Source: Anaerolineae bacterium
Lineage (GTDB): Bacteria; Chloroflexota; Anaerolineae; B4-G1; SLSP01
Reading direction: 5' to 3'
Length of the DNA: 64,000 nt
Assembly (NCBI GenBank): GCA_026645815.1
Contig: JAPKMR010000012.1
Coordinates: forward strand, 26,728-90,727
The notes beneath the pieces were generated by a model. It searched no databases. It saw only the letters and a program-made list of their open reading frames with translations, and was not told the origin of the DNA. Shown here piece by piece: positions 2,969-6,249 of the stretch. Each line of letters starts with the position of its first letter. Position 1 is the first letter of the stretch. The translations under genes were made by a program, and so were the position numbers.

Positions 2969-3529
2969 TCAATCGTTGACGTGGGTGTAGACTTCTGGTT
3001 TGAGCACCCCGATGAAGGGCAGATTGCGATACTGCTCCGCGTAATCCAATCCAAAGCCCAGAACGAACTCATCAGGAATCTCAAAACCCACAAAATCCAC
3101 CGGGATATCAAAAATCTCGCGGCGACTGGGTTTGTTCAGCAACGTAGCAATACGGATCGAGGCAGGGTGGCGGGTTTCCAGGTTGTGAAGAATATAGTTC
3201 AGGGTGTGGCCCGTATCAATGATGTCCTCGACGATGATTACGTGACGACCCTCGATGTTGGCCTCCAGATCGAGCAAAATCCGCACAATCCCACTACTGC
3301 GGGTTCCGCTGCCATAGCTGGAAACGACCATAAAATCCATCTCGTGACGGAAATCGAGGTGACGCACCAAATCAGAGAGAAACATCACCGCCCCTTTGAG
3401 GATACACACGAGCAAGGGCACGTCATCATCAGTATAGCGAGCATTGAGTTCTGCGGCTAGATCCCGAATGCGCACCTGAAGCTGTTCCTCAGTGATAAGA
3501 ATTTTTTCGATGTCATCTAGCATAGTCAT
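2969..3529 (-). CDS. hpt: hypoxanthine phosphoribosyltransferase
   Basis: Typical HPRT sequence: LLVCILKGAVMFLSDL, PRPP loop VIIVEDIIDTGHTL, and FVLGFGLDYAEQYRNLPFIG. Confidence 0.9.
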   Translation of the reverse strand: MTMLDDIEKILITEEQLQVRIRDLAAELNARYTDDDVPLLVCILKGAVMFLSDLVRHLDFRHEMDFMVVSSYGSGTRSSGIVRILLDLEANIEGRHVIIVEDIIDTGHTLNYILHNLETRHPASIRIATLLNKPSRREIFDIPVDFVGFEIPDEFVLGFGLDYAEQYRNLPFIGVLKPEVYTHVND

Positions 3530-3634
3530 GGGAAGGTCTCCTTTGATAAGACAATATCACGCCAAAGGCACAAAAAAGGTCATCGCAGATGCATCCACAG
3601 GGTGAGGAAAGCCGGCTAACTCCCGGGCGCTCTC

Positions 3635-4198
3635 TCACTTTTCGTAAGCGCTGCGCTTCAATGCCGCAATATAGGGTAAGGTACGGAAACGGTCATTGAA
3701 ATCAAGTCCATAACCGACCACCCACACATCGGGAATCTCAAAACCCAGGTAATCCACGGGGACCTCTACCTTGCGACGCTCGGGTTTGCTCAACAACACA
3801 CAGGTGCGCAATGAAGCCGGTCCACGAGCATTGAAGACGCGTTGCAAGTAAGCAAGGGTATAGCCGGTATCGAGAATATCTTCCACGATGAGCACATGCC
3901 GTCCTGGAATTGACGCGCGGGTGTCCATAATCAGCCGAACGGCACCAGGGATATCGGTAGCATCTGAATAACTGGATAGCGCAATGAAATCCACGCGATG
4001 AGGCACGGTAAGCCTACGCGCCAGGTCAGCCAAAAAGATGAACGAGCCCTTAAGCACACCTACCAGGATGAAATCCTCATTGCGTATTCCAACATAATCA
4101 CGGCTGATCTGTTCTGCAAGCGCCTCGGTACGCGCGAGGATGGTTGCCTCATCCAACAACACACGATCTACGGAATCTGGGATCGGAATGTTTGTCAT
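3635..4198 (-). CDS. hpt: hypoxanthine phosphoribosyltransferase, second tandem paralog
   Basis: Same HPRT motifs: [49 protein letters not shown]. Its start overlaps the tdk stop (ATGA). Confidence 0.9.
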
Positions 4199-5048: not shown

Positions 5049-5076
5049 ACAGGGCAGGGTATGAACCCTGCCCTGT
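5049..5076 (-). terminator. intrinsic terminator downstream of rpmE
   Basis: Perfect 12-bp stem acagggcagggt/accctgccctgt with a 4-nt loop. On the minus strand it is followed by ttctttattttc (U-rich). It lies 10 nt after the rpmE stop. Confidence 0.8.
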
Positions 5077-5086
5077 GCAGTTAGTG

Positions 5087-5566
5087 TCAGGCGGCGTTTG
5101 CCTCAGCGGCATCACCCGGGAGGGTGAAGCCCTGTGCACGAAGCAGTTTCTTCAAGTCAGCCAAGGCTTTGAGACCAAAACCACGGATATTGGTGAGTCC
5201 CTCATCGCCCGATTCTGCCATGCGCGCGAGGACATCGCTCACCGTCACAATGCCAGCCTCCTGGAGGCTGTTCTGGACACGCTGCGACAATCCCAGGTCC
5301 GCAATGCCAAGATTGGGAGAAGTACGGGCGTCTTTGCGCTCCTGCACTTCCCGGATGGCATCTTCGCGGGCCTTCAGGCGGCGCATGAAGCGATCAACCT
5401 GTCCCTCGGTGTCCACAATGCGCTGTTCCCCGGTGAAGAAGGGATGGCACTTAGAGCAGACATCCGTACGAATCTCAGGAACCGTAGCTCCTACGGTCCA
5501 GGTGTTACCACACGCACAAATGACCTGTGCGTTTTCATACCATTTGGGGTGAATTTTGGGTCTCAT
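5087..5566 (-). CDS. rpmE: 50S ribosomal protein L31 fused to an RNA polymerase alpha C-terminal-domain-like (HhH) module
   Basis: The N-terminal 70 aa is canonical L31 ([26 protein letters not shown]). The C-terminal 70 aa ([24 protein letters not shown]...[24 protein letters not shown]) matches the alpha-CTD pattern DLELSVRSxNCLKxAxIxTxxDL...NFGKKSLxEIKxxL. Confidence 0.85.
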
Positions 5567-5841
5567 GCTTCAATCCCTTCCTGCATCGGTGCCTGCATCT
5601 GTGCCTGTACGTTCACGCGTTTGCGACCGCGAACGATATCATAGAACACATTGCCATCCGTCAAAGCAAAGAGGGTATAATCACCGCCCATGCCCACGTT
5701 GACACCGGGCTTAATTCGCATTCCGACCTGGCGAACAATAATGTTGCCAGCGCGCACCGATTGACCGCCGTATTTCTTGATGCCGCGGCGCTGCGACCGG
5801 CTATCGCGTCCGTTAGTACCTGTTGCCTTTTTGCGTCCCAT
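5563..5841 (-). CDS. rpmA: 50S ribosomal protein L27
   Basis: [35 protein letters not shown] is the L27 signature. Its stop overlaps the rpmE start (ATGA). Confidence 0.9.
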
Positions 5842-5843
5842 CT

Positions 5844-6164
5844 CTAAGCCGCTCCCTTCACAATCTCATCCACGCGCAGGCGCATATAGGTCTGCCGATG
5901 GCCCTGGCGCCGGCGATAGCGCTCCTTGGGCTTGTGCTTGAAGATGCGGATTTTTGGTCCACGAAATTCCTCGAGAATGGTGGCGCGAACCCGTGCACCG
6001 GGCACGGTTGGTTGACCGACCACAATCTCATCGCCCTCGGCCATCAGGTAAACGTCTTCTAGCTCGATTTGCGCGCCTATCTCTTGGGGGAGACGCTCAA
6101 CAATGAGCTCGCCCCCTACAGTTGCCTTATACTGGTGTGTGCCTGACTTAACGACTGCGAACAC
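5844..6164 (-). CDS. rplU: 50S ribosomal protein L21
   Basis: [24 protein letters not shown] is an L21-type N-terminus. The GTG start at 6164 is preceded by GGAGG 8 nt upstream. The tracked ORF begins earlier, at 6188. Confidence 0.85.
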
Positions 6165-6221
6165 GACTGCATCCTCCATTATACACAATAGAAGCCAACC
6201 TCTTAGGTCGGCTGCGAGTCA

Positions 6222-6249
6222 ATTATATCTAGCTCGAGGATTTTGTCAA
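6222..6249 (-). promoter_or_regulatory. sigma-70-type promoter for rplU-rpmA-rpmE
   Basis: Minus strand reads TTGACA, a 16-nt spacer, then TATAAT. A short leader hairpin (GCCGACC..GGTTGGC) follows before the SD. Confidence 0.65.

What the first reader, a model, noticed from the sequence alone, without database searches (positions are those of the whole stretch)
5087..5566. Ribosomal protein L31 fused to an RNA polymerase alpha-CTD-like helix-hairpin-helix domain
The first 70 residues or so are an ordinary L31. After a charged linker of about 20 aa, the last 70 residues follow the alpha-subunit C-terminal domain pattern closely. [24 protein letters not shown] aligns with the DLELSVRSxNCLK..I.T..DL helix pair, and [24 protein letters not shown] aligns with NFGKKSLxEIKxxLxxxGL. 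L31 sits at the subunit bridge B1 region. An alpha-CTD-like module there could contact DNA, UP-element-like nucleic acid or RNAP-associated factors, which suggests a physical link between ribosome and transcription machinery. I do not know whether this architecture has been described.
Basis: partly seen in the sequence, partly recalled or inferred. Interest (0 to 1): 0.6.

Follow-up and report, generated by a model that had tools for sequence, protein, structure and literature searches.

The report
Ribosomal protein L31 carrying RNA-polymerase alpha-CTD domain
In this Anaerolineae bacterium, the ribosomal protein that bridges the two ribosomal subunits (bL31) carries a conserved extra domain of the type RNA polymerase uses to grip promoter DNA and activators; the fusion is real, transcribed and under selection, but what the domain binds is still unknown.

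Summary
The ORF at 5087..5566 (- strand, 159 aa) has four parts:
- a zinc-type bL31 (Pfam 92.8 bits);
- an Arg/Glu-rich helical arm;
- an RNA_pol_A_CTD domain (41.3 bits against a cut-off of 23.8; the model superposes on a solved alpha-CTD at TM 0.90, 1.1 A);
- a short tail.

It is not a frameshift or assembly artefact. Independent DNA and RNA-run contigs cover the junction without indels. Eleven of 12 strain variants are synonymous. dN/dS of the extra domain is 0.03-0.07.

The 120 best homologues listed are all 154-183 aa, and every named one is from Anaerolineae or Chloroflexota. The gene sits in the rplU-rpmA-rpmE slot that unfused rpmE occupies in other Chloroflexota, so it is the orthologous L31.

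The domain keeps the alpha-CTD residues R265, G296 and K298 and adds a basic stripe. It lacks N268, C269 and the 287 determinant.

Its nearest relatives are not ordinary RpoA. They sit on bS16, NusA, a two-CTD RpoA, membrane proteins and tandem arrays.

The ligand is inferred, not shown. My best guess is duplex nucleic acid or an acidic partner from the transcription machinery.

I found no published description. This is a new variant of known parts, of moderate interest.

The parts
6222..6249 (-). Promoter-like site with perfect sigma-70 consensus (TTGACA, 16 nt spacer, TATAAT) upstream of rplU. Probable operon promoter.
   Evidence: 12 of 12 matches. This is a consensus match only, not a tested function.
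6193..6213 (-). 9-bp hairpin between the promoter and the rplU start. Possibly a leader or attenuator element; function unknown.
   Evidence: One search lists it as terminator-like. No Rfam family matches there.
5844..6188 (-). rplU (bL21), first gene of the operon.
   Evidence: Pfam Ribosomal_L21p, 111.2 bits.
5563..5841 (-). rpmA (bL27). Its stop codon overlaps the L31 start codon (ATGA), which suggests translational coupling.
   Evidence: Pfam Ribosomal_L27, 96.8 bits. The overlap is read directly from the sequence.
5087..5566 (-). rpmE-alphaCTD: the whole fused ORF, 159 aa plus stop.
5375..5566 (-). bL31 type A core, residues 1-64, with the zinc ligands C17, C19, C37 and C40.
   Evidence: Pfam and NCBIfam are above cut-off. 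The four Cys are invariant in 47 homologues. The fold matches L31 chains of 70S structures.
5315..5374 (-). Arg/Glu-rich arm, residues 65-84. It is part of one predicted helix (54-81) and ends in the conserved T-S-P hinge.
   Evidence: AF2 model helix 54-81, with pLDDT 73-85 for residues 61-80. R67 is R in 70/73 sequences, R77 in 63/73, S83 in 67/73, P84 in 62/73.
5111..5314 (-). alpha-CTD-type (HhH)2 domain, residues 85-152.
   Evidence: PF03118 scores 41.3 bits against a cut-off of 23.8. Foldseek match to 9dvt_A (cyanobacterial alpha-CTD): TM 0.90, rmsd 1.1 A over 63 columns. In 73 sequences G129, G131, K139 and G146 are invariant; R96 is R in 68, K133 is K/R in 68, P150 is P in 70. dN/dS is 0.03-0.065.
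5090..5110 (-). Short Ala/Glu tail, residues 153-159. It is longer and strongly acidic in most homologues.
   Evidence: mean tail 11 aa, mean charge -4. pLDDT is below 50.
5049..5076 (-). Intrinsic-terminator-like hairpin (12 bp stem, 8 GC pairs) followed by a T-run, 11 nt after the stop codon. Marks the end of the operon.

Best explanation
SHOWN. The gene is this organism's orthologous rpmE. It is the last gene of a compact rplU-rpmA-rpmE operon. It encodes a zinc-type bL31 whose C-terminus continues into a helical Arg/Glu-rich arm of about 28 residues and then a well-folded RNA polymerase alpha-CTD-type (HhH)2 domain. The fusion is fixed in a large Anaerolineae/Chloroflexota clade and is under strong purifying selection.

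FROM ESTABLISHED KNOWLEDGE. The bL31 N-domain binds the 50S central protuberance. Its C-domain lies on the 30S head along S13 and S19, reaches S14, and ends at 16S helix 41 (PMC9966373). The arm therefore starts on the 30S head, at the end of bL31's C-domain, near S14 and 16S helix 41. If it is a stiff helix, it holds the extra domain a few nanometres off the head.

INFERRED (about 0.4). The domain works as a ribosome-borne polyanion-binding module, using the same face as the alpha-CTD '265 determinant'. R96, G131 and K133 correspond to R265, G296 and K298. A family-specific basic stripe (K139, K140, R143) reinforces that face. The ligand lies outside the ribosome core. The most likely ligand is duplex nucleic acid, meaning the DNA next to the transcribing polymerase. 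An acidic partner that mimics DNA, as NusA AR2 does on E. coli alpha-CTD, is the alternative. Binding would keep the 30S head of translating ribosomes close to the transcription complex or nucleoid. The identity and position of the parts are near certain (0.95 or more). The ligand is not shown.
For: Domain identity.

Real and conserved:
- The 120 best homologues are all 154-183 aa and 62-98% identical. Every named one is labelled Anaerolineae or Chloroflexota.
- 26 species genomes carry the fusion.
- DNA contigs of four runs from four different studies, and contigs of four RNA-labelled runs (two of them metatranscriptomes), cover the junction with no indel.
- 11 of 12 strain variants are synonymous; the twelfth is V112I.
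- dN/dS of the CTD is 0.03-0.065, against 0.013-0.07 for the L31 core.

Orthologous slot: L27 lies directly upstream in 25 of 26 fused loci (within about 260 nt in the 26th) and in the unfused Chloroflexota loci listed in full. tdk lies downstream in most.

Binding face, in 73 sequences: R96 is R in 68; G131 is invariant; K133 is K/R in 68; K139 is invariant; position 140 is basic in 72; position 143 is basic in 72. The HhH2 half carries a mean charge of +3.8 and the first half -4.1. E. coli alpha-CTD has the same dipole, +3 and -3.

External rather than local ligand:
- The same module subfamily is fused to bS16. From my own knowledge bS16 sits on the 30S body, far from the head.
- It is also fused to NusA, a two-CTD RpoA, the cytoplasmic ends of membrane proteins, a sigma-70 region-4 protein, and arrays of up to 11 copies.
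- L31 appears to have acquired modules of different subtypes more than once.
- The arm has an ER/K-type composition, with a mean of 8.2 K/R and 6.1 D/E in 31 residues. Unfused Chloroflexota L31 already carry a charged tail of 20-60 aa.
Against: No binding experiment or complex model exists.

N268 and C269, which are needed for UP-element binding in E. coli, are not conserved here (N in 27/73; L, A or V at position 100). S299 is mostly Ala. UP-element-type recognition is therefore not supported.

The whole domain is slightly acidic (mean -1.2) and is followed by an acidic tail.

The arm contains conserved residues (R67, R77, S83, P84). These could mean it lies on the ribosome rather than projecting freely.

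The AF2 model is only moderately confident (mean pLDDT 74, pTM 0.42). It says nothing about the orientation on the ribosome.

The position relative to RNAP docking sites could not be computed, because no coordinates were available for docking.
Confidence: 0.4

Rival explanations
1. Protein-protein docking module for transcription-translation coupling. The L31-borne domain pairs with another (HhH)2 module of the transcription apparatus, such as the NusA C-terminal alpha-CTD-like domains or acidic region, or RpoA's own CTDs. The precedent is E. coli NusA-AR2 binding to alpha-CTD. The pairing would dock the 30S head directly to the elongation complex.
For: Close paralogues of the module sit on NusA fragments (P0265, P0125 and P0240, with one or two copies followed by a poly-acidic region) and on an RpoA with two CTDs (P0130). 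One L31 lineage (P0249) carries a module that groups with NusA modules at 95/91 support. The charge classes are complementary: L31, RpoA and membrane-N types are near neutral (-1.2, -1.25, 0), while S16 and NusA types are acidic (-5.5, -5). From my own knowledge, the E. coli AR2-alpha-CTD contact uses the 265 face, which is the face conserved here.
Against: The taxonomy of the NusA and RpoA hits is unknown, because those clusters carry no organism names. Membrane proteins, a GH18 protein and 11-copy arrays carry the same module, which argues for a more generic ligand. The 287 determinant used for activator contacts is not kept: there is a 3-residue insertion and different residues.
Confidence: 0.25
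2. Intra-ribosomal stabiliser. The arm and the domain lie on the 30S head (16S h41/h42, S14 and neighbours) and simply enlarge bridge B1b/c or brace the head, with no external ligand.
For: HhH motifs bind the nucleic-acid backbone without sequence specificity (my own knowledge). The arm has conserved basic residues (R67, R77, R/K81) and a conserved T-S-P hinge. The C-terminus of bL31 already contacts h41 and contributes to subunit association (PMC9966373). Many lineages extend r-proteins to contact rRNA (my own knowledge).
Against: The same module is also fused to bS16 on a distant part of the 30S, and to non-ribosomal proteins. L31 lineages carry modules of different subtypes, which is unexpected if a specific rRNA patch had co-evolved. 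Sister Chloroflexota manage with only a charged tail. The arm has the composition of a free-standing ER/K helix.
Confidence: 0.2
3. Extraribosomal moonlighting. Free L31-CTD acts off the ribosome, for example as an autoregulator of its own operon or as a small DNA-binding or regulatory protein.
For: E. coli bL31 autoregulates rpmE at its mRNA leader (PMC7297116, abstract seen). A hairpin lies between the promoter and rplU.
Against: There is no specific evidence. The L31 core is under selection as strict as any r-protein (dN/dS 0.013-0.07), and the gene is the only L31 in the conserved slot. The hairpin has no Rfam match.
Confidence: 0.05
4. Artefact. A sequencing frameshift or misassembly has merged rpmE with a separate small gene.
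For: None found.
Against: No indels appear in contigs of eight public runs, four DNA-labelled and four RNA-labelled, all assembled separately from this window. The same architecture occurs in the 120 best homologues and in 26 species genomes. Selection is frame-consistent across the junction.
Confidence: 0.01

Closest known systems
Bacterial ribosomal protein bL31 type A (zinc-binding RpmE; E. coli 70 aa, T. thermophilus 71 aa)
   Same: Residues 1-64 match the family models end to end. They are 51-59% identical to L31 chains in solved 70S structures. The four zinc cysteines are kept. The gene lies in an r-protein operon.
   Different: The protein is more than twice as long. Where canonical L31 ends on the 30S head, it continues into a helix of about 28 residues and a 68-residue (HhH)2 domain. 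rpmE is joined to rplU-rpmA, a linkage conserved across the Chloroflexota loci examined.
C-terminal domain of RNA polymerase alpha subunit (RpoA alpha-CTD, Pfam PF03118; structures 1doq, 9dvt_A, 1LB2-type complexes)
   Same: HMM score is above the gathering cut-off. The fold is the same (TM 0.90, rmsd 1.1 A, 32% identity to 9dvt_A). The R265, G296, K298 and K304 equivalents are conserved. The charge dipole is the same. Like alpha-CTD, it hangs at the end of a linker.
   Different: It is not attached to an RpoA N-terminal domain. N268, C269 and S299 are not conserved. The 287 determinant is replaced and carries a 3-residue insertion. There are extra conserved basic residues (K140, R143) and a conserved G-[FY]-x-L-P-G-D ending. 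The linker is a conserved helix, not a flexible coil.
NusA C-terminal acidic repeats AR1/AR2 of E. coli ((HhH)2 domains; AR2 binds alpha-CTD)
   Same: It is an (HhH)2 module appended to the C-terminus of a factor of the gene-expression machinery. Paralogues of the L31 module occur on NusA-like proteins.
   Different: The L31 module is near neutral with a basic face. It scores as alpha-CTD rather than as an AR-type HhH. No AR2-like acidic surface is present.
bS16-alphaCTD fusions of Chloroflexota (uncharacterised; annotated only as 'S16')
   Same: It is a second ribosomal protein carrying the same module at its C-terminus after a charged linker. The family is conserved, and its named members are Chloroflexi or Anaerolineae.
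   Different: The host protein and ribosomal site differ (30S body). Its modules are more acidic (mean -5.5) and mostly fall outside the clade that holds 30 of the 33 L31 modules, although one L31 module (L023) groups with them.

Membership tests
bL31 type A (Ribosomal_L31, PF01197 / TIGR00105 / NF000612) | Family HMMs matched end to end above the curated cut-offs | tested here: met
   PF01197 scores 92.8 bits (cut-off 27), covering profile positions 1-64 of 65. NF000612 scores 89.6 (cut-off 70). TIGR00105 scores 82.5 (cut-off 38.35)..
bL31 type A (Ribosomal_L31, PF01197 / TIGR00105 / NF000612) | Four zinc-binding cysteines (CxC ... CxxC), which distinguish type A from type B | tested here: met
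   C17, C19, C37 and C40 are present and invariant in 47 homologues. The type B model NF002462 is below its cut-off (48.6 against 86).
bL31 type A (Ribosomal_L31, PF01197 / TIGR00105 / NF000612) | It is the organism's orthologous rpmE, not an accessory paralogue | tested here: inconclusive
   It occupies the same rplU-rpmA-rpmE(-tdk) slot as unfused rpmE in other Chloroflexota. There is no second L31 in the 64-kb window. The rest of the genome could not be searched.
bL31 type A (Ribosomal_L31, PF01197 / TIGR00105 / NF000612) | Full-length protein incorporated into 70S at bridge B1b/c | not testable with these tools
   This needs ribosome proteomics or cryo-EM. Only transcript-level support is available (RNA-run contigs).
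RNA_pol_A_CTD domain (PF03118) | HMM match above the gathering score | tested here: met
   41.3 bits against 23.8, E 1.3e-10, covering profile positions 3-66 of 67.
RNA_pol_A_CTD domain (PF03118) | Compact helical (HhH)2 fold that superposes on solved alpha-CTD | tested here: met
   The model has helices 88-91, 95-103, 109-119, 122-125 and 132-145. Foldseek match to 9dvt_A: TM 0.90 (target-normalised), rmsd 1.1 A, 63 columns.
RNA_pol_A_CTD domain (PF03118) | DNA-binding '265 determinant' (R265, N268, C269, G296, K298, S299) | tested here: inconclusive
   The R265, G296 and K298 equivalents are conserved (68, 73 and 68 of 73). N268 and C269 are not conserved. S299 is mostly Ala.
RNA_pol_A_CTD domain (PF03118) | Activator-contact '287 determinant' (T285-L290, G315, R317, L318) | tested here: not met
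   The region carries a 3-residue insertion and different residues. G315 is replaced by a conserved Pro.
RpoA (RNA polymerase alpha subunit) | alpha-NTD (RNA_pol_L / RNA_pol_A_bac) preceding the CTD | tested here: not met
   There is no NTD. All rpoA equivalog models are far below their cut-offs (at most 43.6 bits against 227 or more). The protein is not an RpoA; only the domain type is shared.
NusA AR-type acidic (HhH)2 repeat | Strongly acidic domain surface | tested here: not met
   The L31 module has a mean net charge of -1.2 with a +3.8 half. The NusA- and S16-borne paralogues are -5 and -5.5.

The most novel reading that the evidence does not exclude
In Anaerolineae, one shuffled (HhH)2 'alpha-CTD' module is displayed on the ribosome (bL31 on the 30S head, bS16 on the body), on NusA, in a second copy on RpoA, and on the cytoplasmic ends of membrane proteins. 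Basic-faced and acidic versions of the module pair with each other or with DNA. This would give a built-in scaffold that ties transcription, translation and the membrane together, as a hard-wired alternative or supplement to NusG-mediated coupling and a molecular basis for transertion.
Probability: 0.15. Interest if true: 0.85.

Novelty: new variant of a known kind. Interest (0 to 1): 0.55.

Why it matters
Known physical coupling of ribosome and RNA polymerase in bacteria runs through separate factors (NusG, NusA) or direct collision. A ribosomal protein that carries RNA polymerase's own promoter- and activator-binding domain would be a different solution, encoded in the ribosome itself and fixed in a large, environmentally abundant class.

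The domain's attachment point is at the end of bL31's C-domain on the 30S head. This makes the question directly testable with one cryo-EM data set or a few binding assays.

Even if the ligand turns out to be ordinary, such as rRNA, the fusion is a clean lineage marker. It is also a natural example of domain shuffling into core r-proteins. The wider family found here shows that 'alpha-CTD' is a promiscuous adaptor domain rather than an RpoA-only part. That family includes bS16, NusA, membrane proteins and arrays of up to 11 copies.

Tried and rejected
These were: a second L31 paralogue, and the architecture of this genome's own RpoA, NusA and S16. A tblastn of both halves against the window found nothing else.

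2. Frameshift or misassembly is rejected.

3. Literature. Five full-text searches and a look into Yutin et al. 2012 found no description of an L31-alpha-CTD protein. This does not prove absence, because subscription journals are not covered. The architecture is visible in precomputed Pfam annotations.

4. Taxonomy of the non-L31 module carriers. The cluster look-up returned no organism names. Only the S16 family could be placed, in Chloroflexi/Anaerolineae.

5. Rfam scan of the operon. The only hit was a sub-threshold DapZ match over the terminator (23.3 bits against 56), which I treat as chance.

6. dS is saturated between the available relatives (1.7 or more in most pairs). The dN/dS values are therefore upper-bound-like estimates, not precise.

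7. The domain tree has only 67 columns, and many forks are unresolved. I use only the starred branches.

8. Docking on a 70S structure was not possible, because neither PDB nor model coordinates are available in the Python box.

9. A UP-element-type, sequence-specific DNA reading is not adopted, because N268 and C269 are not conserved.

Full report
**What is there**

On the minus strand, 5087..5566 is a 159-codon ORF. It is the last gene of a tight operon:
- a perfect sigma-70-type promoter-like site (6249..6222);
- a short hairpin (6213..6193);
- rplU/bL21 (6188..5844);
- rpmA/bL27 (5841..5563);
- the ORF in question, whose ATG overlaps the L27 stop codon (ATGA);
- a strong terminator-like hairpin with a T-run (5076..5049).

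Thymidine kinase and two phosphoribosyltransferase (Pribosyltran-domain, HPRT-like) genes follow downstream. A Mut7-C RNase-domain gene lies upstream.

**Domain identity**

Pfam finds Ribosomal_L31 at residues 1-64 (92.8 bits) and RNA_pol_A_CTD at residues 76-143 (41.3 bits, gathering cut-off 23.8, E 1.3e-10). The last 80 residues alone give the same hit. NCBIfam calls the N-terminal part an L31 equivalog. It shows only local, sub-threshold matches to the C-terminal end of rpoA models. PDB sequence search agrees, hitting L31 chains with residues 1-64 and Thermus alpha-CTD or RpoA chains with residues 73-149.

An AlphaFold2 model built on 47 homologues has mean pLDDT 74. It shows:
- the L31 beta-sheet (residues 10-34);
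- a low-confidence stretch (47-52);
- one long helix (54-81);
- a five-helix bundle (88-145).

Foldseek matches the N-terminal part to L31 in many 70S structures. It matches the C-terminal part to the alpha-CTD of a cyanobacterial RNAP bound to DNA and RpaA (9dvt_A; TM 0.90, rmsd 1.1 A, 32% identity).

**Not an artefact**

- The 120 best database homologues are all 154-183 aa and 62-98% identical. Every named one is called L31 of Anaerolineae or Chloroflexota.
- Logan contigs of four DNA runs from four different studies (bioreactor, sludge, landfill) cover the ORF and the junction without any indel.
- Contigs of four RNA-labelled runs, two of them declared metatranscriptomes, do the same. One spans from the L31 core across L27 into L21. 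This is consistent with co-transcription. Contigs are weak evidence for expression level, and DNA carry-over cannot be excluded.
- Of 12 strain-level substitutions inside the ORF, 11 are synonymous. The twelfth is V112I, and both residues are common in the family at that position.
- Against three relatives at 86-91% identity, dN/dS is 0.03-0.065 in the extra domain and 0.013-0.07 in the L31 core. dS is saturated in most pairs, so these are rough values.

**Distribution and origin**

A scan of one genome per species returned 80 L31 loci. Of these, 26 carry the extra domain, and all 26 are labelled Anaerolineae, Anaerolineales, Anaerolineaceae or Chloroflexota (a few carry the label 'uncultured Chloroflexia').

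Other groups have L31 followed only by a charged tail of about 20-60 aa, with a few longer non-CTD extensions. These groups are Dehalococcoidia, Chloroflexus/Roseiflexus, Thermomicrobiales, Caldilineaceae, Limnocylindrales and three MAGs labelled Anaerolineae. So a charged tail that may correspond to the arm is widespread in the phylum, while the domain is confined to one large clade.

L27 lies directly upstream in 25 of the 26 fused loci. It lies about 260 nt upstream in the remaining one, L010. It is also upstream in the unfused Chloroflexota loci listed in full. tdk lies downstream in most. The fused gene is therefore the orthologous rpmE, not an added paralogue. The window contains none.

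**Anatomy of the extra domain**

I aligned 73 fused proteins with E. coli alpha-CTD.

| Position here | E. coli equivalent | Conservation in 73 sequences |
|---|---|---|
| R96 | R265 | R in 68 |
| G131 | G296 | invariant |
| K133 | K298 | K/R in 68 |
| K139 | K304 | invariant |
| 140 | D305 | basic in 72 |
| 143 | A308 | basic in 72 |
| G129, G146 | N294, G311 | invariant |
| P150 | G315 | P in 70 |
| N99 | N268 | variable (N in 27) |
| S100 | C269 | variable (L, A, V) |
| A134 | S299 | mostly Ala |

The 287-determinant region carries a 3-residue insertion and different residues.

The domain is a charge dipole. The first half has mean charge -4.1 and the HhH2 half +3.8, like E. coli alpha-CTD at -3 and +3. 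An acidic tail usually follows.

The arm is rich in Arg and Glu, with a mean of 8.2 K/R and 6.1 D/E in 31 residues. It has a few near-invariant positions (R67, R77, S83, P84).

**Relatives of the module**

I ran a phmmer search with the extra domain alone against 1.84 billion representative proteins. It found only 430 hits at E of 1e-3 or lower, so ordinary RpoA proteins are mostly out of reach. The best hits are a particular subfamily found in many architectures:
- L31 fusions;
- bS16 with the module at its C-terminus (P0183);
- NusA fragments (KH domain, one or two modules, then a poly-acidic region and a basic tail: P0265, P0125, P0240);
- an RpoA with two CTDs (P0130);
- membrane proteins with the module at the cytoplasmic N-terminus (P0135, P0148, P0155, P0264; longer ones add GH18 and Ig-like domains, P0153 and P0180) or at the C-terminus (P0200, P0245, P0166);
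- a protein with sigma-70 region 4 plus seven modules (P0129);
- arrays of up to 11 modules (P0122).

The S16 fusion is itself a conserved family. Its named members are Chloroflexi or Anaerolineae.

A domain tree (67 columns, limited resolution) places 30 of 33 L31 modules, including this window's, in one clade with the membrane-protein modules. One L31 module falls with NusA modules (95/91 support) and one with S16 modules (98/98 support). Modules have therefore been exchanged or acquired more than once.

The charge classes differ. L31, RpoA and membrane-N modules are near neutral. S16 and NusA modules are acidic.

**How it most likely works**

The architecture is shown. Placement comes from the literature. 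The bL31 N-domain binds 5S rRNA and uL5 at the central protuberance. Its C-domain runs over the 30S head along S13 and S19, reaches S14, and ends at 16S helix 41 (PMC9966373). Canonical L31 ends at about residue 66-70. The extra helix therefore begins at the end of bL31's C-domain, near S14 and 16S helix 41, and carries the domain up to about 25-40 A further.

The ligand is inferred. Four observations point to a polyanionic ligand outside the ribosome core:
- the conserved R265/G296/K298 face together with the added basic stripe;
- the ER/K-like arm;
- the same module on a distant r-protein (bS16);
- the same module on non-ribosomal proteins.

I put about 0.4 on duplex nucleic acid, or an acidic mimic of it. 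I put 0.2 on a purely intra-ribosomal brace. The loss of N268 and C269 argues against UP-element-like recognition.

**Comparison with known systems, and novelty**

Both parts are textbook domains. The combination is visible in automated Pfam annotation. I found no paper that describes it in five full-text searches and a targeted look into one comparative r-protein study.

Earlier agents of this scan reached the same reading in other Anaerolineae genomes. I treat those as leads. Here I independently confirmed the S16, NusA and two-CTD RpoA architectures and the rplU-rpmA-rpmE linkage. I did not test the bL21 claim.

I rate this a new variant of a known kind, with moderate interest (0.55). The higher-value reading is a shared (HhH)2 docking code linking ribosome, RNAP, NusA and membrane. 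It is not excluded and not shown (probability about 0.15).

Noticed in passing
window 6193-6249 (-): A perfect sigma-70 consensus promoter-like site (TTGACA, 16 nt, TATAAT) is followed within 10 nt by a 9-bp hairpin, just before the rplU start. This may be an r-protein leader or attenuator. It has no Rfam match.
   Followed up: partly
proteins P0122, P0127, P0128, P0129, P0131, P0136 (representative library): These proteins are built of 4-11 tandem alpha-CTD-type modules. One (P0129) also has a sigma-70 region 4. The origin of these sequences is unknown (metagenomic, no organism names).
   Followed up: partly
proteins P0135, P0148, P0155, P0264, P0153, P0180 (N-terminal module); P0200, P0245, P0166 (C-terminal module): Membrane proteins carry an alpha-CTD-type module on a predicted cytoplasmic end. 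Some have extracytoplasmic GH18 or Ig-like (N_BRCA1_IG) domains, or a bactofilin-like region. Their modules are the closest non-L31 relatives of this window's module (51-54% identity for the four checked in full: P0135, P0148, P0155, P0153).
   Followed up: partly
protein P0183 and homologues P0280-P0398: Ribosomal protein bS16 with a C-terminal alpha-CTD-type module is a conserved family. Its named members are Chloroflexi or Anaerolineae. Many other S16 hits in the same search, two of them named Anaerolineae, are 134-211 aa and lack a Pfam CTD hit.
   Followed up: partly
loci L023 (4001-4471) and protein P0249: Two L31 fusions carry modules that group with S16-type (98/98) and NusA-type (95/91) modules rather than with the main L31 clade. 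This suggests module replacement or independent fusion.
   Followed up: partly
loci L039 (3982-4678), L071 (3994-4777), L038 (3928-4459): Other L31 genes have long C-terminal extensions that are not alpha-CTD. L039 (Chloroflexi) has a 163-aa Pro/Met-rich then Lys/Ala-rich, histone-H1-like tail. L071 (Vampirovibrionales) has a 197-aa repetitive beta-rich extension. L038 (Sphaerobacteraceae) has a 90-aa Ala/Glu/Arg tail.
   Followed up: no
window 2969-4198 (-): Two adjacent phosphoribosyltransferase (Pribosyltran-domain, HPRT-like) paralogues (186 and 187 aa) lie directly downstream of thymidine kinase. The tdk plus two PRTase arrangement is conserved in the close relatives L081 and L082.
   Followed up: no
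loci L004, L008, L019, L021, L022, L024-L026 (between the L21 and L27 matches): A gap of about 200-550 nt separates rplU and rpmA in several relatives, whereas they are 2 nt apart in this window. An extra small gene may sit there, such as the L27-processing protease known from Firmicutes. I did not examine this.
   Followed up: no
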